A stretch of DNA of 38,593 nucleotides. Origin: a virus. Lineage: Duplodnaviria > Heunggongvirae > Uroviricota > Caudoviricetes. The stretch covers positions 1 through 38,593 of IMG/VR virus record IMGVR_UViG_2917865565_000005. One strand, written 5' to 3'. The notes beneath the pieces are model-generated. The model ran no database searches and was not told the DNA's origin. It saw only the letters and a program-made list of their open reading frames with translations. The position numbers were made by a program, and so were the translations under genes. Below are positions 1,106 to 30,285 of this stretch, one piece after another. Position 1 is the first letter of the stretch. Each line of letters opens with the position of its first letter.

Positions 1106-2878
1106 TCATACGTCAGGGGTAATCCAGTCGACTAAAGCCTCAATACTTTCGAAATCTGCACAGATATCTGAAAGAGGTTGTGTATCTGCTTTTGTTTTGA
1201 AATCAGCCCATACTGATTCATTTTTTTCTGTAAGACCCAAATGGTTTTCTATCGAACCGTTTAGCCAAATCCAAATATTTGCATTTCTCAGTTTTGCGGC
1301 TAATGATGACAAAAATTCTCTGGCGCCGGGCTTTTGAGACATAAGAGCAAATGCTTCAGCTGCGGTAGTGTTACTACCCTTTGTAGGCAAACCGGATCCA
1401 TCGAGAGTGCATTCTCCATTAGCATGCATACTTCTCAAGATTTCTTTTAGTCGTAAAATATCCTCGTCATTATGTTCTAAGAAGTTGTTCCTTATTGCAC
1501 CGCGGAACGCAAAATCTAAATCAACAATTGCTTTTGTAGGTATATCCATTGAATTTAGAATTTGCATCGTTTTAGATATACTTTCAACGGACCCTGTTTC
1601 AATTAGTGCTATTTGCATCTGACCTAATGTTTTATTTTTAACTTTGTTAAAAAATAAATGGGAGCAGAGTAGTCTCTGTTTTACCTTCTGTTAGTATTAC
1701 ATTGTTAGCAAATAAAACTTTTGACGACTGTGTTAATGAAAATAAATGGGTTGCTTGTGCTGGTCGTTGTTCGATTACTTTATTGACTGCTTCTTTTAAT
1801 GTTAATCTGCAATGAGTGCCACGCTGACTGTTTTTTCTGATTAATACAGTGTCTTTTGCTAAGTCAGAGGTAATCATTTGAGATGAATGGGTAGAGAAAA
1901 TTATTTGATATCCATGATGAGATAGTGTTTTTAGAGATTCTCTAATTTGTTCGATAGCAAATGGGTGAAGATATAACTCAGGTTCATCTATTAACAGTAG
2001 AGTAGTTGTTTTAATATCATCACCGTTGGTTATATCAGCTAAATGTCTTATTAGAGCCATCTGAATCGAACGCTGTGTGCCATGACCATAAGAAGAACAG
2101 TCACGAGCAATTCCGGGAAATGAATCTTCATATACTTTTACAGTTCCTGATTTAAATATATCCTTGAAGTCAGGGAGTTCGAAGTGTAGTTTTAAACTTA
2201 TCCCTGGGAAGAAATCAGCAACTTTACTACTTATTGAATTATCAATATCATTGAGGTCCGATATTCGTTTATTACCGGTTGCAGTCATTCTTCTGTTAAC
2301 GGCATTTAAATGGCTTAGTATCCTTTGAGTGTGCTTCTCTTCTATTTTGCAACTCAATTCTGCCAGCAACTTACCTATTGTAGTACCTGTTTTTGATTTT
2401 GAAGAATCATCCGCTGCATTTTCCATTGCACCTATACGTATTGGATCTGGAAATAAAGCTTTTATCGCATTCTCAATACCCGTTGGTGATGTCCTGAATT
2501 CGTTATTTTCTGGGTTTTTAATTAATAACCTGACGTCTTTTGCACTTTGAGCACCAACAATCTGTTGACGCTTAAATATCAATACCCCATCAATAATGTA
2601 GGGTGAAATTCTAGTTCTGTTTTCTTCTGTTAAAGCTGACAAAATATCTTCAGTAATACCCTTAACTGTACCTATAACTTCTATAGGGTTATCTGGATTA
2701 GTATAATCATCAGAGGACAAAAGTTTTTTTCTTAAAAAGCCATTCAATAGCATTTAAAATCGTTGACTTACCTGCATTGTTGTAACCTATTAAAGGCGTG
2801 AATGAAGAAAAAATTGATATCAATATCTTTGCAAGATCTAAAGTTTTTTATAGAAATCTTTGAAAGATGATGATTCAT
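1106..2878 (-). pseudogene. old: OLD-family ATPase-TOPRIM nuclease (P2 Old-like); reading frame broken at three homopolymer runs in this sequence, probably intact in reality
   Basis: Minus-strand reading from ATG 2878 (SD GGAGGAG 6 nt upstream): 'MNHHLSKISIKNFRSC', Walker A 'LIGYNNAGKSTILNAIEW', Walker B-like 'LLLIDEPELYLHP', TOPRIM 'VILTEGKTE' then 'AIVDLD' about 45 aa later. These lie in successive frames joined at A6 2808-2813, T7 2724-2730 (or A5 2734-2738) and A6 1649-1654; removing one base at each gives about 589 codons. ORF-track pieces are 1647..2753 and 1106..1618. Confidence 0.7.
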
Positions 2879-11163: not shown

Positions 11164-12313
11164 ATGAAGAAGTTAACTGCGAGACAAAGAGAGATTGACG
11201 TAAAACGCTCGATAAAGTTACGACAAGGGCGTGCTAAAGTTAGAAAAAAAGGTAAATCATTTCACTATAATGTTGAATGGCGTAAGGCTAACTATTGGAT
11301 TGAAGAACAATCAAAAAATGGATTAGATGTACAATTTGTAAGTAAAAAAAAGAAAGGGTTAATTCTAACTTTACCTTCTGAAATGAATTTTTCTACACAC
11401 TACGATGTTACTGTTCAGCATATTAATGCGATTCGAATGTTATCAGAGAGAAAAGGATTGCCTAATGCAGGTTATCAATTAGCATCTGTTAATTTTTTGT
11501 AATTTGAAGAAAATATCGACATCTGCAGCTCTTGTGTTAACTGCAGAGTTATCTAAATGGGATGATGCGATTAGGCAGAGGTTGACTCCAAAAATAGACG
11601 GTTGGGATAAAAATGTTCTACGTAATTTCTATGAATTGGGGTTCTTTGATTTATTCAAAAAAAGCAGGGATATAAAATTAAATTTTAATGATGAGTATTC
11701 AAAAATAAAAGGTAAGCGATTTGTAAAATATCTTAAAGGAAAGTGTGGGGAAATTAAGAAAACAAAAGTATTAAAAGAGGAGATTATTAAATTAGTTGGT
11801 GAGTCTATTGAAAAATGGACTTTCTTACATGGGGGCCTAAGTGAGGCTATTACCAATGTTTCTCATCATGCATATCCTTCTGATTGCGGATATAAAGAAT
11901 ATGATAAGAACTGGTATCTAACAGGATCTTATCATTTAGAAAGTAAGGAATTGAAGATAGTTTTTTATGATCAGGGTGTTGGTATCCCTAAAACTTTACC
12001 TGCATCAAAAGTTTGGGAAAAGGCATTAAATGTATTAGCATCAATTCCTGTATTGGAGCGATATCGTGATGAAGCACTCTTGAAAGCTGCGGTAGAGTTG
12101 GATAGGACAAGTACAGAAGAGGGAGATCGTGGTAAAGGCCTACAGGATCTACTTGAGTTTATTAAACAAAGAGAAAATGGTTATTTATCAATCATGAGCC
12201 TTAAGGGACTTTATAAACACTCAATGAATCAAGGTAATACAAAAATAAAAACTAAGAGTTTTGCATCCCCAATCTATGGTACACTAATAACTTGGAGTGT
12301 ATCTCTTGATTGA
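11164..12313 (+). CDS. GHKL (histidine-kinase-like ATPase fold) protein with basic N-terminal region; ORFs 11164..11502 and 11504..12313 are probably one gene
   Basis: Downstream ORF has N-box 'LSEAITNVSHHAY', G1 'VFYDQGVGIP', G2 'GDRGKGLQDL', G3 'YGTLITW'; it has no ATG or SD (starts at TTG one base after the upstream stop). Removing one T from T6 (11493-11498) fuses the two in frame. Confidence 0.6.
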
Positions 12314-12327
12314 GATGGAGGTTTAAT

Positions 12328-12735
12328 ATGAAAAATCTAGAAATTAATATAGGGAAAGAGTTTTCTTCTACTCCTTCAGGACGTTTCTATTCTGATATGA
12401 CAGATAGCAGCGGCGAACAGTTTAGAGAGGAGCTTTTATGGCCTCGCTTACAATTGCTTAAAGAAAAGCAAAAGATCGACATTATTTTGGATGATGACGT
12501 TGAAGGTTATGGTTCTTCTTTCCTCGTTGAAGGTTTTGCCGGTATAGTAAAATATGGATATATGGATAAACAACAACTATTAAGTAAACTTGAGTTAATT
12601 CAGAGAGATCCTGATTTTGCTTTGTTTAAGAGAAAAATAATACAATATATTAACGAGGCAGTGTTTGATTCAAAGGTTTATGAAAGTACCAAACCTATTT
12701 ATTTGTCTAAGTTGTTGACGCAAAAAAACACGTAA
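12328..12735 (+). CDS. Small STAS-like (anti-sigma-antagonist-like) protein
   Basis: 135 aa from ATG 12328 (SD GGAGG 12317-12321); 'KIDIILDDDVEGYGSSFLVEGFAGIVK' resembles the STAS phospho-serine loop region; stop overlaps the SD of the next gene. Confidence 0.5.
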   Translation: MKNLEINIGKEFSSTPSGRFYSDMTDSSGEQFREELLWPRLQLLKEKQKIDIILDDDVEGYGSSFLVEGFAGIVKYGYMDKQQLLSKLELIQRDPDFALFKRKIIQYINEAVFDSKVYESTKPIYLSKLLTQKNT

Positions 12736-12747
12736 GGAGTAAAGCAA

Positions 12748-13392
12748 ATGGAGCCCAATTATAATTATCATTATATGATGAGTAATAATGAGCTTTATTT
12801 TAGGGCGGGTTATGATGCTCAGCAATATGGGTTTGTTTTTTCTCATTCGGCTGTTGATGATGTCGACTTGGTACATATTATCAATGGTGGTTTTTCATCT
12901 GTTGCAGAAGCTATTAGTAACTCAGGAAACACCACACTTTCTGATGGGATTATACTTGCATTAGCAGGTGCGTTGAGTGCTTTTTTCTTTAATTTGATTC
13001 AAAAAGGAATTGACGCTAAGGCAAAACGTCTCACCAAATCTGGTGAAGCAATGTTATCCTTGATAAATGAATTGGAGGATATTGCAGTACGTTATTGGGT
13101 CAGAGGGCACGATTCATCTTGTGCTGATAATGAAAGCAATATTTGTGATGAGATTAATATCAAAGCCATGTTAATGACCTTGGATAAAAATATTAGGTTT
13201 ATGGTTGATAATTTACCGTTAAAAAACAAGTCTTTAAATAAAAATAAGCTGGAGAAATTTTCTTCTGATATTTATGATTTGGCATCTGGTGAAGATTTCG
13301 AAGCAGAGGTTAGGCCTCCCAATAAAACAAAGGCCTTTGCTATATCGAAAAAATGTAGTGAAGCAAAAGCCATCATTCTTGGTTTGATTTAA
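12748..13392 (+). CDS. Hypothetical protein with one hydrophobic (possible transmembrane) segment
   Basis: 214 aa; SD AAGGAG 12734-12739; hydrophobic stretch 'IILALAGALSAFFFNLI'; stop codon overlaps the portal gene stop on the other strand. Confidence 0.55.
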   Translation: MEPNYNYHYMMSNNELYFRAGYDAQQYGFVFSHSAVDDVDLVHIINGGFSSVAEAISNSGNTTLSDGIILALAGALSAFFFNLIQKGIDAKAKRLTKSGEAMLSLINELEDIAVRYWVRGHDSSCADNESNICDEINIKAMLMTLDKNIRFMVDNLPLKNKSLNKNKLEKFSSDIYDLASGEDFEAEVRPPNKTKAFAISKKCSEAKAIILGLI

Positions 13393-21312: not shown

Positions 21313-21751
21313 ATTGCAGAAGGTGGACGACTGGCTGAGTGCCTTGCTGGCGAATCTGGAGCCAGCCGCAAGAAGCCTCATGATGCGCCAGCTGGCGCAG
21401 GAACTGCGCCGGACACAGCAGCAGAATATCAGGATGCAGCGCAATCCTGATGGCAGCAGTTATGAACCGCGCAGGGTAACAGCACGCAGCAAGAAGGGGC
21501 GCATCAAACGTCAGATGTTTACAAAGCTGCGCACCACAAAATACCTGAAAACTGCCGCCAGCGCCGATTCTGCCAGCGTACAGTTTGAAGGTAAGGTGCA
21601 GCGCATTGCCCGCGTTCATCACTACGGCCTGCGCGATCGCGTCAGTCGTAAGGGACCGGAGGTCCGTTACGCAGAGCGTCGTTTGTTAGGTATTAATGAT
21701 GACGTAGAATCCTTAACCCACGATGTATTATTGCGCTGGCTATCTAATTGA
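21305..21751 (+). CDS. S: Tail completion / virion morphogenesis protein gpS
   Basis: 148 aa, P2 S-like size and position. Confidence 0.8.
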   Translation: MAELQKVDDWLSALLANLEPAARSLMMRQLAQELRRTQQQNIRMQRNPDGSSYEPRRVTARSKKGRIKRQMFTKLRTTKYLKTAASADSASVQFEGKVQRIARVHHYGLRDRVSRKGPEVRYAERRLLGINDDVESLTHDVLLRWLSN

Positions 21752-22636
21752 TTGTTTACCAATCGATGGAGTTAAGTTTTTAGGCCTGAGGGCGAGAAAT
21801 GGTTCATAGTCTATCCATGAGTCCCAGTTAATTAATCCATCATCGAATCCTATATATTTCATTAATACTAAAGGTAAAAGTAAATTTAGATTTGAATAAT
21901 AATCACTTAATTTAATGATACTGCTTGGATCATCTTTCTTAATGTATCCAATATAATTTCCATTGTGGAATAGAGAGTTTCGAAGCGTGCAATAGTGAAT
22001 CACGTTTCTTTGTGGTACAGGGTTGCCTTCTTTAGATACATTAAAACCATAATCTTTTAAAACCTTTGTAATTATTTGTGGTGTATAACTAGATGTCGAC
22101 TCGTTATCGATATATCTGCACAGGGATTCTAATGCTGAGAAATTAAGGAAGTATTTAACATCTACATAGTCCATTCTTTCCCTAAAAGAAAATATAGACT
22201 TATAGAACGCAGTTCTAAAAGGGTTTTGATGAGAATTAATATTTCTATGAAGTTTATCCATCGCAAGCTCAATGAACGCTGAGCGACTCTTTTCAGAGAA
22301 GCAATCTTCAACAATTATTCCTAGTGATGACTTTCTTTTTGACTTCAATTTTAGTGGGAAATTATTATCTAACTTTTCAGGTGTTTCATGTTTCTCTAGG
22401 AAGTTTGATATGATTACATTTTTTTGTGTTCAATGAAACTTAAAACAGCTGAAAGATCATAAATTATTTGAGTGACGGTGTTTTCAGAAGCATGTGCGGG
22501 AGAGAAAAATCCACTTAATACATATTCGCTTCCATCGCATTTATTCTCTTTTAGTTCCTTAAAGGATTTGTAACGAGGTATCAGTGTCCCTCCTTTAAAA
22601 GTAAATTCTTTCGTGAAGCAATATCCATAGATACCG
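21740..22636 (-). pseudogene. AT-rich accessory gene inserted between S and V; hypothetical protein with HEPN-like R-x4-H motif; two ORFs separated at a T7 run
   Basis: Upstream piece from ATG 22636 (SD AAGGAG); downstream piece (21740..22348) has only a TTG start and no SD, but its frame is open back to the upstream stop; adding one base at T7 22419-22425 joins them (about 299 aa). 'CTLRNSLFHNGNY' contains R-N-x3-H. Confidence 0.4.
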
Positions 22637-22674
22637 ATTTGTGTCATCTGTAACTCCTTTGCGCGGATAAACAT

Positions 22675-22692
22675 TGTGTAGTAAGTCATACA
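22675..22692. promoter_or_regulatory. TGT-N12-ACA dyad upstream of gene V (candidate late-promoter activator site)
   Basis: TGTgtagtaagtcatACA; only about 57 bp from the V ATG (22741), closer than at O and FI, so weaker. Confidence 0.35.
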
Positions 22693-22740
22693 TTTCTGAC
22701 TCAATGTCCCACAATATATGTTTGTGCAAATATCGTCGAC

Positions 22741-23319
22741 ATGAATGCACAACTAACCGAAATCATGCGCCTTATCACCAATCTGATCCGCACAGGTGTA
22801 GTCACCGAAGTGGACCGGGAAAACTGGCTGTGTCGGGTGAAAACGGGCGACCTCGAAACCAACTGGATTAACTGGCTGACACTGCGCGCGGGCAAATCGC
22901 GCACCTGGTGGAAACCGTCTGTGGGCGAGCAGGTTGTGCTGTTCAGCCTGGGTGGCAATCTGGAAACCGCGTTTGCCCTGCCTGCTGTCTACTCAAATCA
23001 GTTTCCACCACCTTCAGACTCTGAGGACGGCAACGTGGTTGAGTACCCGGACGGTGGCTGGTTTGAATACGAACCCGCGACCGGGCGCTGGTATGTCAGG
23101 GGCATCAAATCTATGGTCATTGAGGCCGTCGACAACATCACCCTGAAAACCAGTGAGTTTGTGCTGGAGGCTGACCGCACGCGTATTAACAGCGAAGTGG
23201 TGATCAATGGTGGTGTTACCCAGAGTGGCGGTGCAATGAGTTCTAACGGGATCGTGGTTAATGCGCATCAGCATACTGGCGTCCTGAAAGGCGGCGATAC
23301 CACCGGAGGCCCGGTATGA
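22741..23319 (+). CDS. V: Baseplate assembly / spike protein gpV
   Basis: 192 aa; N-terminus and 'WWKPSVGEQVVLFSLGG' align to P2 V as recalled. Confidence 0.85.
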   Translation: MNAQLTEIMRLITNLIRTGVVTEVDRENWLCRVKTGDLETNWINWLTLRAGKSRTWWKPSVGEQVVLFSLGGNLETAFALPAVYSNQFPPPSDSEDGNVVEYPDGGWFEYEPATGRWYVRGIKSMVIEAVDNITLKTSEFVLEADRTRINSEVVINGGVTQSGGAMSSNGIVVNAHQHTGVLKGGDTTGGPV

Positions 23320-23675
23320 CGCTTTATAGCGGGATGAACAATACCAGCGGTAAAGCTATTACTGATATTGACCATCTGCGCCAGTCGGTGCGGGACATTC
23401 TGCTGACACCGCAGGGTAGCCGCATTGCCCGTCGTGAATATGGTTCCCTGCTGTCGGCACTGATAGACCAGCCACAAAATCCGGCGTTACGCCTGCAGGT
23501 CATGTCGGCAGTGTATGTCGCGCTGAGTCGCTGGGAGCCACGGCTGACGCTGGATTCCATCACCATCAACAGCAATTTTGACGGTTCAATGGTGGTGGAG
23601 CTGACCGGGCGGCGGAATAACGGTGTGCCTGTTTCCCTTTCCGTATCAACAGGAGCAGAGAATGGCAGTGATTGA
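23316..23675 (+). CDS. W: Baseplate protein gpW
   Basis: 119 aa, P2 W-like size and position. Confidence 0.85.
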   Translation: MTLYSGMNNTSGKAITDIDHLRQSVRDILLTPQGSRIARREYGSLLSALIDQPQNPALRLQVMSAVYVALSRWEPRLTLDSITINSNFDGSMVVELTGRRNNGVPVSLSVSTGAENGSD

Positions 23676-24570
23676 CCTTTCGCAGTTACCTGCGCCGCAG
23701 ATTGTGGATGTGCCGGACTTTGAGACGCTGCTTGCCGAACGCAAGGCAGAATTTGTGGCGCTTCATCCGAAAGATGAGCAGGAAGCAGTGATGCGTACGC
23801 TGGAACTGGAATCTGAACCCGTCACTAAATTGCTGCAGGAGAACGCTTACCGTGAGTTGCTTCTGCGCCAGCGCATTAACGAAGCCGCGCAGGCTGTGAT
23901 GGTGGCTTACGCGATGGGCGGCGATCTTGACCAGCTCGCTGCTAACTACAACGTGAAACGCCTGACGGTGACACCTGCTGATGATGACGCTGTACCGCCC
24001 GTTGCGGCTGTGATGGAAAGTGATGAAGCGTTACGCCTGCGTGTGCCTGCAGCCTTTGAAGGGCTTTCTGTTGCTGGGCCAACTGCCGCTTATGAGTTTC
24101 ATGCACAAAGCGCCGACGGTCGGGTGGCGGATGCCAGTGCAACCAGTCCGGCACCTGCAGAGGTGGTGCTGACAGTTCTTAGCCGCGAAGGCGACGGAAC
24201 AGCAGAAAAAGACTTGCTGGATGTGGTGGAGAACGCCCTGAACAGTGAGAACGTCCGCCCGGTGGCTGATCGTCTGACGGTTCGCAGCGCAGAAATCATC
24301 CCGTACCGAGTGGAAGCCACCATTTTTCTTTATCCGGGACCGGAAGCAGAGCCGGTAATGGCAGCGGCAAAAGCCAGCCTGCAGAAGTACATCGCCAGTC
24401 AGACGCGGCTTGGTCGGGATATTCGCCGTAGCGCCATCTTTGCCGCCCTGCATGTTGAGGGAGTGCAGCGTGTGGAACTGGCTTCGCCGCTGGCGGATGT
24501 GGTCCTGAACAAAACACAGGCGGCATCATGTACGCAGTGGAGCGTAACCAACGGAGGAACGGATGAATAG
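23662..24570 (+). CDS. J: Baseplate protein gpJ
   Basis: From ATG 23662 (SD AGGAG): 'MAVIDLSQLPAPQIVDVPDFETLLAERKA...' aligns along its length to P2 J as recalled. Confidence 0.85.
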   Translation: MAVIDLSQLPAPQIVDVPDFETLLAERKAEFVALHPKDEQEAVMRTLELESEPVTKLLQENAYRELLLRQRINEAAQAVMVAYAMGGDLDQLAANYNVKRLTVTPADDDAVPPVAAVMESDEALRLRVPAAFEGLSVAGPTAAYEFHAQSADGRVADASATSPAPAEVVLTVLSREGDGTAEKDLLDVVENALNSENVRPVADRLTVRSAEIIPYRVEATIFLYPGPEAEPVMAAAKASLQKYIASQTRLGRDIRRSAIFAALHVEGVQRVELASPLADVVLNKTQAASCTQWSVTNGGTDE

Positions 24571-25168
24571 TTTGCTGCCGCCGGGTTCAACACCACTGGA
24601 GCGCCGACTGGCGCAAACCTGCAGCGGGATTTCTGATCTGCAGGTGCCACTGCGTGACCTGTGGGATCCGGCTACCTGTCCGGTCAGTTTCCTGCCTTAT
24701 CTCGCCTGGGCGTTCTCTGTGGATCGCTGGGACGAGGACTGGACGGAAAGCGTCAAACGCCAGGTGGTGAAGGATGCTTTTTATATTCATCAGCACAAAG
24801 GAACCACCAGTGCCGTGCGGCGGGTGGTGGAGCCGTTCGGCTTTCTGATCCGCATTATTGAGTGGTGGCAGACCGGAGAAACACCAGGCACGTTTCGCCT
24901 GGATATCGGCGTGCAGGACCAGGGCATCACCGAAGATACCTATCTGGAACTTGAGCGACTGATAAGCGATGCCAAACCATGTAGCCGTCACATGATCGGC
25001 ATGTCCATCAATCTGCAGACCAGCGGCCTGCATTGGGTGGGAGCCGCCAGCTATCTTGGCGAAGAAATCACGATCTATCCGTATATCAACGAAACAATTA
25101 TTTCCGGCGGCACCGCGCATGAAGGCGGGGCGGTCCACGTTATTGACACAGTGAGAGTGAATCCATGA
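24563..25168 (+). CDS. I: Baseplate / tail protein gpI
   Basis: 201 aa following J as in P2. Confidence 0.85.
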   Translation: MNSLLPPGSTPLERRLAQTCSGISDLQVPLRDLWDPATCPVSFLPYLAWAFSVDRWDEDWTESVKRQVVKDAFYIHQHKGTTSAVRRVVEPFGFLIRIIEWWQTGETPGTFRLDIGVQDQGITEDTYLELERLISDAKPCSRHMIGMSINLQTSGLHWVGAASYLGEEITIYPYINETIISGGTAHEGGAVHVIDTVRVNP

Positions 25169-26790
25169 GCACAAAATTTTATACCCTGCTGACGGAGATT
25201 GGTGCGGCGAAACTTGCCAGCGCCACTGCACTTGGTGTGCCGCTTAAAATTACTCATATGGCGGTGGGGGATGGTGGTGGAGCATTGCCGACGCCGGACG
25301 CAAAGCAGACGGCACTGGTAAATGAGAAACGCCGGGCTGCGCTGAATATGCTCTATATCGACCCGCAGAACAGCAGCCAGATTATTGCTGAACAGGTGAT
25401 CCCCGAAAACGAGGGCGGTTGGTGGATCCGTGAAGTGGGCCTGTTTGATGAATCCGGGGCATTGATTGCCGTGGGCAACTGCCCGGAAAGCTATAAGCCG
25501 CAACTGGCTGAAGGCAGCGGGCGTACCCAGACCGTGCGCATGGTGCTGATTACCAGCAGTACGGACAATATCATCCTGAAAATCGACCCTGCTGTAGTGC
25601 TGGCAACCCGCAAGTATGTGGATGACAAGGCACTGGAGCTGAAGGTGTACGTGGATGACCTGATGGCAAAACATCTTGCCGCACAGGACCCGCATTCACA
25701 GTATGCACCCAAAGAAAGTCCAACGTTTACCGGAACCCCCAAAGCGCCAACGCCAGCGGCGGGGAATAATACCACGCAGGTTGCGACCACCGCATTTGTT
25801 CAGGCGGCACTGACGGCTCTTATTAATGGTGCGCCAGCCACGCTGGACACGCTGAAAGAAATAGCCGCAGCCATAAACAATGATCCGAAATTCAGCACCA
25901 CTATTAACAATGCGCTGGCACTGAAAGCACCACTGTCGAGTCCGGCACTCAGCGGAACGCCGACAGCCCCCACGGCGGCGCAATCGGTCAACAATACACA
26001 GATTGCCACCACGGCATTTGTGAAATCGGCGATTGCGGCAATGGTGGGTTCTGCACCTGCGGCACTGGATACACTGAACGAACTGGCGGCGGCGCTGGGG
26101 AATGACCCGAACTTTGCCACGACAATAACTAACGCCCTTGCGGGGAAGCAGCCAAAGGATGCTACTTTAACGGCGTTGGCAGGGCTTTCTACATCAAAAG
26201 ATAAACTCCCTTATTTTACAGGGGAAGATCAGGCTGCCTTAACTGCACTGACAAGTGTTGGGCGTGCCATTCTTAGCAAGCCCAGCGCACAGGGCGTTCT
26301 TGATTATCTTGGTTTAGGGGATGGCTCTGCATTACCTGTTGGTGTCCCTGTTCCGTGGCCTTCTGCCATTCCACCGACAGGCTGGCTGAAATGCAACGGA
26401 GCGGCTTTTTCGGCAGAAGAATATCCCAAACTGGCAAAGGTTTATCCGACAAATAAATTGCCTGATTTACGTGGTGAGTTTATTCGCGGCTGGGATGATG
26501 GGCGTGGTATTGATGCTGGACGTGCTTTATTAAGCCTTCAGGCTGGAATGCTGGAAAAACACCGCCATATGGTTGTAGCCAACGATGGGTATGATTCAAA
26601 AGAGGAATGGGAACTGGCGGCAATCTTCAGAAAAGCATATACGCAAGGCCGGGGGCTTGATGCTGCCGATGCCGGAGGGACTCTGATTCCATCACCAACG
26701 CTACATACACGAGGGAGTATTGGTAACACAGGTGGGAGCGAAACCCGTCCACGAAATATTGCATTTAACTATATCGTGAGAGCTGCATAA
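25165..26790 (+). CDS. H: Tail fibre protein gpH
   Basis: 541 aa; conserved P2-H-like N-terminus; two tandem internal repeats containing 'NNTQ(I/V)ATTAFV'; C-terminal tail-collar-like region 'LRGEFIRGWDDGRGID...ETRPRNIAFNYIVR'. Confidence 0.85.
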   Translation: MSTKFYTLLTEIGAAKLASATALGVPLKITHMAVGDGGGALPTPDAKQTALVNEKRRAALNMLYIDPQNSSQIIAEQVIPENEGGWWIREVGLFDESGALIAVGNCPESYKPQLAEGSGRTQTVRMVLITSSTDNIILKIDPAVVLATRKYVDDKALELKVYVDDLMAKHLAAQDPHSQYAPKESPTFTGTPKAPTPAAGNNTTQVATTAFVQAALTALINGAPATLDTLKEIAAAINNDPKFSTTINNALALKAPLSSPALSGTPTAPTAAQSVNNTQIATTAFVKSAIAAMVGSAPAALDTLNELAAALGNDPNFATTITNALAGKQPKDATLTALAGLSTSKDKLPYFTGEDQAALTALTSVGRAILSKPSAQGVLDYLGLGDGSALPVGVPVPWPSAIPPTGWLKCNGAAFSAEEYPKLAKVYPTNKLPDLRGEFIRGWDDGRGIDAGRALLSLQAGMLEKHRHMVVANDGYDSKEEWELAAIFRKAYTQGRGLDAADAGGTLIPSPTLHTRGSIGNTGGSETRPRNIAFNYIVRAA

Positions 26791-27390
26791 TGGATAAAGC
26801 CGTATTAAATAGCGAACTTATTGCCACGAAGGCGGGGAATATTACCGTCTATAACTATGATGGTGAAACACGGGAATATATTTCTGAATCAACTGAATAT
26901 CTTGCTGTTGGCGTCGGTATTCCCGCACATTCGTGTTTAGATGCTCCTGGTTCATATAAGTCAGGTTATGTGTCCTGTCGAACTCTGGATTTGAGATCAT
27001 GGGAATATGTCCCTGACCACCGTGGTGAAACGGTCTATAACACATTGAACGGTAAACCGATAGAAATAAAAACCATTGGTGAATACCCGGAAAATGTGAC
27101 CACTCTTGCACCATCCACACCATATGATGTTTGGAATGGGAATGAATGGGTTGTGGACCTACAGGCGAAAAAAAAACGCATTAGAGAAAGTTTTTATAAC
27201 AGAAAGAGATATGGCGATTAATGAAGCTCTGAATTACATATCTCCTTTACAGAGTGAATTATTATTAGGGAGTATTTCGGAGCGAAATAAAGAAATTTTG
27301 CAGGTATGGTTAAACTATATTAATGAGTTAAAGGAAGCGGTATTTGTTTCTGATAAAGCTTCCTTATTGCCTGCTAAGCCAGAATGTTAG
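26790..27390 (+). pseudogene. G: Tail fibre assembly protein gpG; frame broken at an A9 run, probably intact in reality
   Basis: ORF 26790..27221 ends abnormally ('...QAKKKRIRESFYNRKRYGD*'); the conserved C-terminal part ('AINEALNYISPLQ...KEILQVWLNYINELKEA') is in ORF 27106..27390; one A fewer in A9 (27168-27176) joins them (about 200 aa). Confidence 0.75.
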
Positions 27391-27410
27391 TATTGCCTAA
27401 AGCTAGCCAT

Positions 27411-28401
27411 TTATTGGCTGGCTTTTGAGAGCAATATACTTTGTATGTGTGAAAATAATCGGTCCATGATTCTGGAAGAAATTGTACTGCTTAATAAGTA
27501 ACATATAGCAAAGCTGATTATTACTGTACCTACCAATATGAACGGCCATGACAACATCTTATTTAGGTAAGTGGAAATGTATAATATAAATAGACCATGT
27601 AACAGATATATACTAAGACTATTTTTTCCAAACCGCTCTAAAATTACACAGGTGGGTTTTAGCTGCATAAGAGCTAATACAAAAGCCGGAACCGCTGCGT
27701 AGTTGACTACTTTGTATAACATAAGTACAACTATAGATTTATCAAAATAAGAGAATGGAAAAGCGCCGTAGAGAAATATGGTAGGTGCAAGTATCGATAA
27801 AATCACTAATGCAATAACTGCTGAGAATAAAATGAGGTATATCGTATTTTTGTCGTGCCTTATACGTAATAAATTATTCCGATAAAATAACGCTCCTATA
27901 ATGAAGTAGGGTAGAAAATTAATTGTCCTCATAATGGATAGAGTCTGCGAACTGAAATCAATGAATTGAAATGCGAAGCTTATAAGTAAAGAAAGACAAA
28001 GAGGGTAACGGAAGGTGAATAGAACAGAAGCAATTATTTGCCAGAAAAAAAAGGCTTAAAAGATACCACATTATCCAATAAGGCGCGCCAATCTTAAGAT
28101 AACCAGAAATACTTCCTGTCAGCAAGAAGTTGATAAATTCATAAATAAAATTAAAAACAATGAATGGAACAAGAATATGTTTGCTTAATTTGTATATGTC
28201 AAGATTGCTACATCCCTTGCTAAGAAAACCAGAAATTAATACAAAGGCGGGCATGTGAAATGTGTAAATGAAATCATATATGTATTTCACTTGTTCATGT
28301 TCTACGCCACCGCCAAGTATGTGCGCCATAACCACCAGGAAAATTAACGCGCCTTTGAGCGTATCGATAGTGTTATCACGATTATCGATCTGTTGTGCCA
28401 C
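27411..28401 (-). pseudogene. Acyltransferase family 3 (O-antigen O-acetyltransferase-like) membrane protein; frame broken at an A8 run
   Basis: N-terminal motif 'NRDNTIDTLKGALIFLVVMAHIL' and 'FHMPAFVLISGFL'; multiple TM helices; two ORFs (27958..28407 and 27411..27932) join if A8 (28045-28052) is A7; GTG start 28401 with SD AAGGA (TTG 28407 in the ORF track). Confidence 0.7.
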
Positions 28402-28495
28402 GGACAATCCTTAAGTGTATATAGTTAGTTTTCTGTTGAAGACAGTATCCAGGGTAACGGATTCAATTAAAAGTATTAAATGAGAATCTGATAAT

Positions 28496-28513
28496 TGTGC
28501 TGGCCGTCGTACA
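28496..28513. promoter_or_regulatory. TGT-N12-ACA dyad (late-promoter activator site) upstream of FI
   Basis: TGTgctggccgtcgtACA, centred about 83 bp upstream of the FI ATG (28588). Confidence 0.5.
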
Positions 28514-28587
28514 AACGACCTCGCGTGACCTAAGGCAACTTTATTTTCATAGTAGGCATTATCCCTGTAAACCGGAGAGACTGCCTT

Positions 28588-29760
28588 ATGGCTCAGGATT
28601 ACCACCACGGGGTGCGCGTTGTTGAAGTCAACGAAGGCACCCGATCTATTACCACGGTGAGCACCGCCATCGTGGGCATGGTCTGCACGGGCGATGATGC
28701 CGATGCAAAAATGTTTCCTCTTAATAAACCCGTGCTGATCACTGATGTGCTGACTGCCAGCGGTAAAGCGGGTGAGTCCGGCACACTGGCCCGCTCGCTG
28801 GATGCCATCGCTGACCAGGCAAAACCCGTGACCGTTGTTGTGCGTGTGCCGCAGGGTGAAACGGAAGAAGAAACCACGACCAATATCATCGGCGCAGTGA
28901 CTGCTGAAGGTAAAAAAACAGGCATGAAAGCCCTGTTATCTGCCCAGACACAGCTCGGCGTTAAACCGCGCATTCTCGGCGTGCCAGGTCACGATAACAA
29001 AGCCGTTGCTACTGAGTTGCTGAGTGTGGCGCAAAGCCTGCGTGGGTTTGCCTACCTGTCAGCGTATGGCTGCAAGACGGTACAGGAGGCGATCACTTAC
29101 CGTGAAAATTTCAGCCAGCGCGAAGGAATGCTGATCTGGCCTGACTTTACTGGCTGGGACACGGTGCTGAATGCCGAAGCAACGGCATATGCCACCGCCC
29201 GTGCGCTTGGTCTGCGTGCCAAAATTGATGAGCAGACCGGGTGGCACAAAAGCCTGTCCAACGTGGGCGTGAACGGTGTCACCGGAATTTCTGCAGATGT
29301 GTTCTGGGATCTGCAGGACCCGGCAACCGATGCAGGTCTGCTGAACCAGAACGACGTCACCACGCTTGTGCGTAAAGACGGTTTCCGCTTCTGGGGTTCT
29401 CGCTGCCTGAGTGATGACCCGCTCTTTGCCTTCGAAAACTACACCCGCACGGCGCAGGTGCTGACGGACACAATGGCAGAAGCGCACATGTGGGCAGTGG
29501 ACAAACCGCTGAACCCGTCGCTGGCGCGCGACATTATCGAGGGCATCCGCGCCAAAATGCGCAGCCTGGTCAGTCAGGGGTATCTCATTGGTGGTGATTG
29601 CTGGCTGGACGAGTCGGTGAACGACAAAGACACGCTGAAAGCCGGAAAACTCACAATCGACTACGACTACACGCCAGTGCCGCCACTTGAAAACCTGATG
29701 TTGCGTCAGCGCATCACCGATCAGTACCTGGTGAATTTCGCCAGCCAGGTTAGCGCGTAA
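28588..29760 (+). CDS. FI: Contractile tail sheath protein gpFI
   Basis: 390 aa, P2 FI-like length and position. Confidence 0.9.
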
Positions 29761-29769
29761 GGGGACAAC

Positions 29770-30285
29770 ATGGCTTTACCACGCAAATTAAAACACCTGA
29801 ACCTGTTTAACGATGGGAACAACTGGCAGGGGATCGTTGAGTCGCTGACGCTGCCGAAATTCACCCGCAAATATGAGAAGTATCGCGGCGGCGGAATGCC
29901 GGGTGCAGTGGATGTGGATCTGGGGCTTGATGACAGTGCGCTGGACACAGAATTTTCCATTGGTGGTACTGAACTGCTGCTGTTTAAACAGATGGGCAAA
30001 GCCACGGTGGATGGCATCCAGTTGCGCTTTACCGGCTCTATCCAGCGTGATGATACCGGGGAAGTACAGTCCGTGGAGCTTGTGGTGCGTGGACGTCACA
30101 AAGAAGTGGACTCCGGCGAGTGGAAGACGGGCGAAAGCAACACCACCAAAGTGACCAGTACCAACAGCTACGCGAAGCTGACTATCAATGGTGAGGTGCT
30201 CTATGAAGTGGACCTTATCAACATGGTGGAAATTGTGGACGGTGTGGACCTGATGGAAGCGCACCGCAACGCCCTTGGCCTCTGA
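29770..30285 (+). CDS. FII: Tail tube protein gpFII
   Basis: 171 aa, directly after the sheath gene. Confidence 0.9.
   Translation: MALPRKLKHLNLFNDGNNWQGIVESLTLPKFTRKYEKYRGGGMPGAVDVDLGLDDSALDTEFSIGGTELLLFKQMGKATVDGIQLRFTGSIQRDDTGEVQSVELVVRGRHKEVDSGEWKTGESNTTKVTSTNSYAKLTINGEVLYEVDLINMVEIVDGVDLMEAHRNALGL

What the first reader, a model, noticed from the sequence alone, without database searches (positions are those of the whole stretch)
25700..26790. Tail fibre H has a tandem internal repeat and a tail-collar-type C-terminus
Two consecutive segments of about 65 aa share the motif 'GTP.AP(T)...NNTQ(I/V)ATTAFV...A(P)A.LDTL.E(I/L)AAA...DP.F(S/A)TTI.NALA', and the C-terminal region has the collar-like motifs 'LRGEFIRGWDDGRGID' and 'ETRPRNIAFNYIVR'. 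The distal part after the repeats is the likely receptor-binding region.
Basis: seen in the sequence. Interest (0 to 1): 0.2.

Follow-up and report, generated by a model that had tools for sequence, protein, structure and literature searches.

The report
Ordinary mosaic P2-type tail fibre
This is the tail-fibre gene of a P2-like prophage of Escherichia, built from a duplicated 74-residue shaft module and a T4-like "collar" tip that most likely binds the host; the same protein is already catalogued in hundreds of E. coli genomes, so it is ordinary.

Summary
Gene H (25165-26790, 541 aa) contains two adjacent copies of a 74-aa module (aa 185-256 and 259-330). They align without gaps at 61% identity, z = 26 against shuffles. 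The duplication is old: DNA identity is 62%, and 33% at third codon positions.

The C-terminus has a full Pfam Collar hit (aa 393-440, E 2.7e-14). It is homologous to the T4 gp37 tip, including the final strand NIAFNYIVR. A Foldseek search with a partial AlphaFold model ranks gp37 first and T4 gp12 next.

It is a hypervariable insert of about 65 aa (aa 460-525), framed by a conserved collar and a conserved closing strand, with an HxH motif at its base. The receptor cannot be inferred.

The exact protein is RefSeq WP_135406280.1 from Escherichia sp. E2562. Copies at 95-99% identity occur in hundreds of E. coli contigs, and one-copy and three-copy variants of the module exist.

The downstream chaperone gene tfa looks frameshifted. 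An independent assembly of the same prophage has it intact, so this is probably an assembly indel. Nothing here is novel, and interest is low.

The parts
25165..26790 (+). Gene H, tail fibre, 541 aa (stop codon 26788-26790)
   Evidence: ORF. PHROG 327 'tail protein', E 4.9e-207. Exact protein is WP_135406280.1. Gene order V-W-J-I-H-tfa-...-FI-FII.
25165..25614 (+). N-terminal baseplate-attachment domain, aa 1-150 (Pfam Phage_tail_fib, PF12571)
   Evidence: E 1e-64, model positions 1-150/150. 95/159 identical to P2 gpH aa 1-159.
25717..25938 (+). Shaft module, copy 1 (aa 185-258; aligned core aa 185-256)
   Evidence: 61% identical to copy 2, z = 26. 41/72 identical to the single module of P2 gpH.
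25939..26160 (+). Shaft module, copy 2 (aa 259-332; aligned core aa 259-330)
   Evidence: 60/74 identical to P2 gpH aa 256-329. Its second half matches PDB 9d93 'tail collar fibers gp4', E 1.7e-11.
26161..26322 (+). Conserved hinge module, aa 333-386 (KDATLTALAGL...YLGLGDG), ending at the junction where different fibre bodies are joined to this tip
   Evidence: 32/52 identical to P2 gpH aa 330-381. Replaced by a 22-aa version in the 509-aa variants. The 249-272-aa proteins join the same tip at LGLGEGSALPVG.
26323..26541 (+). Collar domain, aa 387-459 (Pfam Collar hit is aa 393-440, nt 26341-26484)
   Evidence: Pfam E 2.7e-14. T4 gp37 2xgf, E 5.4e-17. pLDDT 87-94 in the model. Most residues match the query in 70-99% of 128 cluster representatives.
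26542..26739 (+). Hypervariable tip insert, aa 460-525: the likely receptor-binding surface. It contains the HxH motif H466-R-H468 (nt 26560-26568) on the outgoing strand.
   Evidence: Mostly 0-20% conservation and variable length across 128 representatives; HxH kept in 55%. HRH aligns with HSH of the gp37 needle. Highest within-family entropy. pLDDT below 55, so no reliable shape.
26740..26787 (+). Closing segment, aa 526-541 (ETRPRNIAFNYIVRAA), which returns to the collar
   Evidence: Aligns with the last 24 residues of T4 gp37. RPRNIAFN.IVRAA is invariant in A1. Residues from aa 528 on match the query in 70-99% of representatives. Forms a beta-strand with pLDDT 73-81.
26790..27390 (+). tfa (P2 gene G analogue), the tail-fibre assembly chaperone. 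In this assembly it is split by one extra A in the run at 27168-27176.
   Evidence: Caudo_TAP halves in two frames. Removing one A gives 199 aa with one Caudo_TAP hit, E 3.4e-18. Intact at 199 aa in L005 and L007.

Best explanation
Gene H encodes the trimeric side tail fibre of a P2-like (Peduoviridae) prophage of Escherichia sp. E2562. It is a chain of exchangeable modules.

- Aa 1-150: the P2-type N-terminal domain, which plugs into the baseplate.
- Aa 185-332: two diverged tandem copies of a 74-aa shaft module. P2 gpH carries one copy.
- Aa 333-386: a conserved hinge module.
- Aa 387-541: a T4 gp37/gp12-type collar with its tip.

In the tip, each chain leaves the collar on a strand carrying an HxH motif, forms a hypervariable distal insert of about 65 aa, and returns so that its last strand (RPRNIAFNYIVR) completes the collar.

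By analogy with gp37 and gp12, the three HxH motifs of the trimer would hold one metal ion at the base of the tip. The insert would contact the cell-surface receptor, which is not identified here. Folding and trimerisation would start at this end with the help of the adjacent Tfa chaperone, whose N-terminal half travels with the tip.

The conserved collar, the closing strand and the 'YLGLG' junction act as homologous-recombination handles by which tips are swapped between phages. Unequal crossing-over between the two shaft modules changes fibre length.

Shown here: the domain and repeat architecture, the homologies, the conservation pattern and the existence of copy-number variants. Inferred: trimer formation, metal binding, receptor contact by the insert, and dependence on the chaperone.
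For: Identity and context.

Repeat. P2 gpH has one module, the same hinge and a different C-terminus.

Copy-number change: P0049 (610 aa) has three modules, and the middle one is a hybrid of the copy-2 N-part and the copy-1 C-part. That is the expected product of unequal crossing-over.

Collar and tip:
- Pfam Collar, E 2.7e-14.
- gp37 2xgf, E 5.4e-17. Aa 387-473 align, including HRH against HSH, and aa 518-541 align to gp37's last residues.
- gp37 residues 814-860 correspond to the gp12 collar (PMC3004832).
- AF2 model with collar pLDDT 87-94. Foldseek top hits are 2xgf (E 5.9e-7), then gp12 entries 5iv5_AI and 1ocy.

Hypervariable insert between conserved frames: 128 representatives of a family with 13,852 cluster representatives. 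Within the close family, entropy is 0.29 bits in the tip against 0.13 in the collar and 0.07 in the closing strand.

Tip as a mobile cassette:
- The same tip at 87-99% identity sits on unrelated 172-272-aa fibre proteins.
- A 72%-identical tip lies next to Hin-type invertase genes in a P1-like phage.
- Megablast collinearity with other P2-like phages ends at nt 962, 1248 or 1350 of the query, which starts at the first base of H.

Chaperone: Caudo_TAP gene immediately downstream. Its first ~240 nt are identical to the tfa that accompanies the same tip in E. coli AF3, and the rest is diverged. This fits the published model in which the Tfa N-domain binds the fibre and the C-domain trimerises (North et al. 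2019, as summarised in PMC9608196).

Distal part sets host range in P2: PMC9942202 and PMC9594776.
Against: No experimental or high-confidence structural information exists for the insert (pLDDT below 55). The whole-protein model failed (pLDDT 31).

TM-scores to gp37 and gp12 are low (0.35-0.39), because only the collar is modelled well.

The HxH motif is absent from 45% of representatives, so a metal site is not a universal feature of the family.

The excess variability of the tip within the close family is only about two-fold.

The fold of the 74-aa module is unknown. It has no Pfam or NCBIfam model.

In this assembly tfa is frameshifted. If that is real, the fibre might not fold.
Confidence: 0.8

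Rival explanations
1. The internal 'repeat' is a compositional artefact of an Ala/Thr/Pro-rich fibre sequence, or a recent duplication or assembly artefact, rather than two real structural modules.
For: The region is rich in A, T, P and N. No DNA tandem repeat is detected.
Against: The score is 26 SD above composition-preserving shuffles, with a 72-column ungapped alignment. The copies differ at 38% of nucleotides and 67% of third codon positions. Both copies are conserved in hundreds of independent genomes and phages. Each copy has its own relationship to the P2 module: 81% for copy 2 and 57% for copy 1.
Confidence: 0.01
2. The C-terminal domain is mainly a folding and trimerisation device, like the intramolecular chaperone domains of T5 pb1 or the endosialidases. 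The true adhesin would be another protein, for example Tfa staying bound at the tip, as gp38 does in T2/S16-type fibres and as reported for Mu Tfa.
For: Fibre folding generally starts at the C-terminus (PMC3004832). Mu and Ur-lambda Tfa proteins remain in the virion, and Mu Tfa is said to contribute to receptor recognition (PMC9608196). The Tfa N-terminal half is co-inherited with this tip.
Against: There is no Peptidase_S74 or other intramolecular-chaperone hit. The homologous gp37 and gp12 domains are themselves receptor-binding (titles of 2xgf and 1ocy). The hypervariability lies in H's own insert.
Confidence: 0.12
3. The fibre is non-functional in this prophage, because its chaperone gene tfa is truly frameshifted. 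H would then be a decaying remnant.
For: In the window, tfa is split at an A9 run. The window is identical to the deposited assembly GCA_004745205.1.
Against: An independent short-read assembly (SRR8835204) of a prophage with no substitutions over 9.6 kb has A8 and an intact 199-aa tfa. A third assembly (SRR6148323) also has A8. Over the 9.6 kb compared, all three internal differences from SRR8835204 are indels that break genes, which is the pattern expected of assembly errors. H itself and the other essential P2 genes are intact.
Confidence: 0.07

Closest known systems
E. coli prophage tail fibres annotated 'phage tail-collar fiber domain-containing protein' (e.g. WP_001522719.1 in E. coli AF3; clusters P0008 and P0009)
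   Same: Same length (541 aa) and 95-99% identity, with the same two modules, hinge, collar and tip. AF3 is 528/541 identical. The exact sequence is WP_135406280.1.
   Different: Essentially nothing in H. The downstream tfa C-terminal half and the acyltransferase gene differ.
Bacteriophage P2 gpH (NP_046775.1, 669 aa)
   Same: Same gene position. N-terminal domain 60% identical. The same 74-aa module (81% to copy 2) and the same hinge module. Needs the downstream chaperone G. The distal part sets host range.
   Different: P2 has one copy of the module, not two, and has a different upstream repeat (SSATNSTSETLAATPKAVK, twice). Its C-terminal ~290 aa are unrelated and have no collar.
T4 long tail fibre tip, gp37 residues 785-1026 (PDB 2XGF)
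   Same: Collar domain. The first HxH strand leaving the collar. The C-terminal strand NIAFNYIVR that returns to the collar. Best Foldseek match of the model.
   Different: gp37 inserts about 130 residues between the outgoing and returning strands: a long needle with several HxH metal sites and a head (from my recollection of Bartual et al. 2010). Here the insert is about 45-65 residues with one HxH. No sequence similarity exists in the insert, so gp37's receptor cannot be transferred.
T4 short tail fibre gp12 receptor-binding domain (PDB 1OCY, 5IV5)
   Same: Founding member of the Pfam Collar domain. A collar followed by a metal-binding HxH (from my recollection of Thomassen et al. 2003). Weak sequence hit, E 3.8e-4. 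Foldseek hits with E 4e-4 to 1e-3.
   Different: Only about 21% identity. The head is different.
Side tail fibres of lambdoid phages (HK97 and HK106 Stf) and tip cassettes of P1-like invertible segments
   Same: C-terminal 160 aa are 56% identical (HK97, HK106) and 72% identical (Punavirus vB_EcoM-673R5, next to Hin genes), with the same collar and closing-strand frame.
   Different: The fibre bodies differ. The identity sits mostly in the frame rather than the insert. No receptor could be transferred from any of these fibres (none was looked up here).

Membership tests
P2-type tail fibre (Pfam PF12571 Phage_tail_fib N-terminal domain; Peduoviridae gene H) | Full-length match to the N-terminal domain model above the gathering score | tested here: met
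   E 1e-64, 217.5 bits against a cut-off of 23, model positions 1-150/150. 95/159 identical to P2 gpH.
P2-type tail fibre (Peduoviridae gene H) | Position in the conserved tail gene order V-W-J-I-H-G ... FI-FII | tested here: met
   Pfam Tail_P2_I immediately upstream and Caudo_TAP downstream. Called genes of L005 and L006, including Phage_base_V, GPW_gp25, Baseplate_J and Phage_sheath_1. P2 map.
Phage Tail Collar domain (Pfam PF07484) | Match above the gathering score covering the model | tested here: met
   E 2.7e-14, 53.3 bits against a cut-off of 24, aa 393-440, model positions 1-57/57.
T4 gp37/gp12-type collar-plus-tip fold | Sequence homology to the solved collar domains | tested here: met
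   2xgf E 5.4e-17 (aa 387-473). 1ocy E 3.8e-4.
T4 gp37/gp12-type collar-plus-tip fold | The chain returns, so that the extreme C-terminal strand completes the collar | tested here: inconclusive
   Aa 518-541 align to the last 24 residues of gp37, with NIAFNYIVR identical, but that stretch alone has i-Evalue 5.4. The strand is predicted with pLDDT 73-81. Its packing in a trimer was not modelled.
T4 gp37/gp12-type collar-plus-tip fold | Predicted 3-D similarity | tested here: inconclusive
   Foldseek ranks 2xgf first (E 5.9e-7, probability 1.00) and gp12 next, but TM-scores are 0.35-0.39, because only the collar is confidently modelled.
T4 gp37/gp12-type collar-plus-tip fold | HxH motif binding a metal ion on the trimer axis | not testable with these tools
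   The motif H466-R-H468 is present and aligns with gp37's HSH. In A1, H468 is invariant and H466 nearly so. The motif is kept in 55% of representatives. Metal binding itself needs experiment.
Tfa-dependent tail fibres | Cognate Caudo_TAP chaperone gene immediately downstream | tested here: met
   26790-27390. One Caudo_TAP hit, E 3.4e-18, after removing one A. Intact in L005 and L007. Functional dependence was not tested.
Fibres with a C-terminal intramolecular chaperone (Peptidase_S74 type) | Peptidase_S74 / intramolecular chaperone domain at the C-terminus | tested here: not met
   Only PF12571 and PF07484 are found at E <= 0.01.

The most novel reading that the evidence does not exclude
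The collar-framed insert with a single HxH would be a minimal version of the gp37 needle / gp12 head: a compact, recombination-ready receptor-binding cassette of about 65 aa. The 74-aa shaft modules would be a length-tuning device. Their copy number (1, 2 or 3 seen here) would be changed by unequal crossing-over to match the thickness of the host's O-antigen or capsule layer. Neither idea is excluded by the data, and neither is tested.
Probability: 0.15. Interest if true: 0.3.

Novelty: already known. Interest (0 to 1): 0.08.

Why it matters
It matters little for discovery. The protein, its Pfam domains and its mosaic nature are already catalogued. Modular exchange of tail-fibre tips between P2, Mu, P1, lambda and T-even phages has been textbook knowledge since the early 1990s (my recollection: Haggard-Ljungquist et al. 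1992; Sandmeier 1994).

The practical value is modest. The analysis maps clean module boundaries: the end of copy 2, the YLGLG junction, the end of the collar, and the closing strand together with the Tfa N-domain. These could guide chimeric P2 or pyocin fibre design. It also flags that the apparent frameshifts in this assembly should not be read as biology.

Tried and rejected
- Tandem Repeats Finder and seed-based DNA repeat search found nothing at the 222-nt period. The copies are too diverged at the DNA level, so the repeat shows only at the protein level.
- The AlphaFold2 model of the whole H, with a shallow 34-sequence alignment, was useless (mean pLDDT 30.7). It was not used for any fold search.
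- The PDB hit 9cuy_c (phiTE short tail fibre, E 6e-16) is not structural evidence. Only residues 3-92 of that chain were built from density, and the matched part (154-303) is an AlphaFold prediction.
- The source paper of 9d93 ('tail collar fibers gp4'), the only solved chain matching the shaft module, could not be found. The fold of the module therefore stays unknown.
- NCBIfam has no model for H or for the module.
- Comparing the C-terminal 166 aa with phages of known receptor gave nothing useful. The best phage hits are 55-72% identical, with the identity concentrated in the frame. T4 gp37 shares only the frame. No receptor assignment is possible.
- An exact 32-mer from the acyltransferase gene found nothing in 185,579 species-representative genomes.
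- The truncated tfa and acyltransferase products are not on record as called genes.
- I first recalled the Tfa domain roles the wrong way round. PMC9608196 corrects this: the N-domain binds the fibre and the C-domain trimerises.
- The antisense ORFs overlapping H (25075-25695, 25800-26120 and others) were taken to be by-products of the GC-rich coding strand and were not pursued.

Full report
**What is there**

The window is a complete P2-like prophage. Around the finding the genes are:
- V (22741-23319)
- W (23316-23675)
- J (to 24570)
- I (24563-25168; Pfam Tail_P2_I, E 5e-55)
- H (25165-26790, 541 aa)
- a tail-fibre-assembly gene (26790-27390)
- an acyltransferase gene on the minus strand (27411-28407)
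- sheath FI (28588-29760) and tube FII (29770-30285)

H matches PHROG 327 'tail protein' at E 4.9e-207.

The exact H sequence is RefSeq WP_135406280.1, 'phage tail-collar fiber domain-containing protein', from Escherichia sp. E2562. Over the 9,626 nt compared, the window is identical to NCBI assembly GCA_004745205.1, contig PDIJ01000005.1.

**The observation: internal repeat**

A self dot-plot of H has one dominant off-diagonal at an offset of 74 residues. Residues 185-256 align with residues 259-330 over 72 columns without a gap, at 61% identity. The score is 228, against 39.6 +/- 7.3 for 2000 composition-preserving shuffles (z = 26).

The two copies are directly adjacent, at nt 25717-25932 and 25939-26154.

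The copies are only 62% identical in DNA, and 33% at third codon positions. This explains why Tandem Repeats Finder finds nothing and the DNA repeat finder reports no pair at the 222-nt spacing. The duplication is old and is not an assembly artefact. No third copy is detectable elsewhere in H.

**The observation: collar**

Pfam Collar (PF07484) matches aa 393-440 over the whole model, with E 2.7e-14 and 53 bits against a cut-off of 24.

Against solved structures the best hit is the T4 long-tail-fibre tip gp37 (2XGF, E 5.4e-17). Residues 387-473 align with the gp37 collar and the first strand leaving it. Residues 518-541 align with the very last residues of gp37, with NIAFNYIVR identical. T4 gp12, the founding collar structure, is a weak hit (E 3.8e-4). 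The correspondence between gp37 814-860 and the gp12 collar is in the literature (PMC3004832).

An AlphaFold2 model of aa 380-541, built with 84 diverse sequences, has pLDDT 87-94 in the collar and 73-81 in the last strand, but below 55 in between. Foldseek against the PDB ranks 2XGF first (E 5.9e-7) and then the gp12 entries 5IV5_AI and 1OCY. TM-scores are low (0.35-0.39), because only the collar is well modelled.

A second PDB hit, phiTE's short tail fibre (9CUY), is not structural evidence. The matched part of that chain was not built from density.

**Anatomy of the C-terminal domain**

The domain family is very large: 13,852 cluster representatives at E <= 1e-3. I aligned 128 representatives that cover the whole domain. 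The pattern is clear:
- Collar (aa 389-459): most residues are identical to the query in 70-99% of sequences.
- Closing strand (from aa 528): most residues are identical to the query in 70-99% of sequences.
- Aa 460-525: mostly 0-20% conserved and variable in length.

H466 and H468 (HRH) are each kept in 55% of representatives. They align with an HSH of the gp37 needle.

Among 86 distinct tips of the close family, mean column entropy is 0.29 bits in aa 457-525, against 0.13 in the collar and 0.07 in the closing strand.

So the domain is a conserved frame holding a hypervariable insert. By analogy with gp37 and gp12, the insert is the distal, receptor-contacting part. The three HxH motifs of a trimer would bind one metal ion; that gp12 and gp37 bind metal this way is from my recollection of Thomassen et al. 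2003 and Bartual et al. 2010. These last points are inference.

**Mosaicism**

Canonical P2 gpH shares several parts with this protein:
- the N-terminal domain (95/159 identical)
- a single copy of the 74-aa module (aa 256-329; 81% identical to copy 2, 57% to copy 1)
- the hinge module KDATLTALAGL...YLGL (32/52 identical)

Its C-terminal ~290 residues are unrelated and have no collar.

In the phage collection, megablast collinearity with Klebsiella and E. coli P2-like phages runs from the first base of H only to nt 962 (the end of copy 2), 1248 or 1350 (within the collar). The C-terminal 166 aa have at best 72% identity, and mostly 55-60% or less.

The same tip (87-99% identity, starting exactly at LGLGEGSALPVG) is fused to several unrelated N-terminal parts in 172-272-aa E. 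coli 'tail fiber' proteins. The 72% hit lies next to Hin-type invertase genes in a P1-like Punavirus. These are tip cassettes of the invertible-segment kind.

Variants of H itself exist:
- a 509-aa form with a short hinge and the same tip
- a 610-aa form (P0049) with a different insert and three modules

In P0049 the middle module is a hybrid of the copy-2 N-part and the copy-1 C-part. That is exactly what unequal crossing-over between the two copies would produce.

**Chaperone**

The gene after H has the two halves of Pfam Caudo_TAP in two reading frames. Removing one A from the A9 run at 27168-27176 gives a 199-aa protein with a single Caudo_TAP match, E 3.4e-18.

A short-read assembly of an otherwise identical prophage (SRR8835204, no substitutions in 9.6 kb) has A8 and an intact 199-aa gene. 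SRR6148323 also has A8. The frameshift is therefore most likely an indel error of the deposited assembly.

The first ~240 nt of tfa are identical to the tfa that follows the same tip in E. coli AF3. After that the two diverge and GC content drops. This fits the published modular model, in which the Tfa N-domain binds the fibre and the C-domain trimerises (North et al. 2019, as summarised in PMC9608196). Tip plus Tfa N-domain behave as one inherited cassette.

**How it most likely works**

H trimerises from its C-terminus with the help of Tfa. The N-terminal domain docks on the baseplate. The two 74-aa modules and the hinge form the shaft; their fold is unknown and no Pfam or NCBIfam model covers them. 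The insert at the tip binds an unidentified E. coli surface receptor.

In P2, replacing the part of H distal to residue 370 (inside the hinge module), together with the cognate chaperone, retargets particles (PMC9942202; PMC9594776).

**Comparison and novelty**

The 7.1-kb tail region around H has megablast matches in 2,219 of 5,426 complete E. coli genomes. Among the close homologues listed, single clusters stand for 521 and 255 contigs. H in E. coli AF3 is 528/541 identical.

Architecture, annotation and evolutionary behaviour are all known, so I rate this 'already known' and of low interest.

The receptor could not be inferred from any fibre of known specificity. Similarity to T4 gp37 is limited to the conserved frame.

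Noticed in passing
window 27168-27176 (tfa, 26790-27390): The tail-fibre assembly gene is split by one extra A in an A9 run. Removing it restores a 199-aa Caudo_TAP protein. Two independent short-read assemblies of the same prophage (L005, L007) have A8 and an intact gene, so this is probably an assembly indel rather than biology.
   Followed up: yes
window 27411-28407 (- strand), homopolymer at 28045-28052: An Acyl_transf_3 gene (GC ~35%) sits between tfa and FI, the slot where P2 carries fun(Z). It is broken by one extra base in an 8-nt run; repaired, it gives 331 aa (Pfam 3-324/326), and it is intact at 329 aa in L005. The region 27030-28600 has no match in 5,426 complete E. coli genomes or 50,697 phage records, and the closest phage proteins are <=32% identical. 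It is possibly a surface-polysaccharide-modifying conversion gene next to the fibre genes.
   Followed up: partly
window 21740-22752 (- strand), indel at 22424-22425: A low-GC gene without a Pfam or PADLOC match, lying between S and V, is split into 202-aa and 112-aa ORFs by an extra 'TG'. It is a single 301-aa gene in L005 and L007.
   Followed up: partly
window 1106-2753 (- strand): A homologue of the P2 Old defence nuclease is split into two ORFs: PADLOC Old positions 46-403 (E 1e-146) and 415-578 (E 2e-50). This is probably another indel in an AT-rich gene of this assembly. It was not compared with other assemblies.
   Followed up: no
window 11164-13392 (+ strand): Four consecutive low-GC (~34-35%) ORFs of 112, 269, 141 and 214 aa lie just before the portal gene. 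None has a Pfam or PADLOC match apart from a weak, sub-threshold DUF4325/STAS-like hit. From memory, P2-like phages carry variable anti-phage systems at such positions, so this could be an uncharacterised cargo or defence cluster.
   Followed up: no
proteins P0121-P0240; locus L002 6001-6487: The same collar tip (87-99% identity) is the C-terminus of hundreds of short (172-272 aa) E. coli 'tail fiber' proteins with unrelated N-termini; some are mis-named 'integrase'. A 72%-identical tip lies beside Hin invertase genes in a P1-like phage, which has 6 matching places. These are tips acting as invertible or exchangeable cassettes.
   Followed up: partly
protein P0049 (610 aa) and P0001 (768 aa): P0049 has three 74-aa modules, the middle one a copy-2/copy-1 hybrid, which is the signature of unequal crossing-over. 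P0001 (Salmonella Typhi, named 'Gifsy-2 prophage tail fiber protein') contains a large internal duplication running from inside module 1 into the tip. This could be a real rearrangement or an assembly artefact.
   Followed up: partly
window 26790-27390 versus L001 4551-5153: tfa is itself mosaic. The first ~240 nt are 100% identical to the tfa of E. coli AF3, which has the same tip. After that the sequence diverges and GC content falls. The recombination joint lies at about 27030, roughly between the fibre-binding N-domain and the trimerising C-domain.
   Followed up: partly
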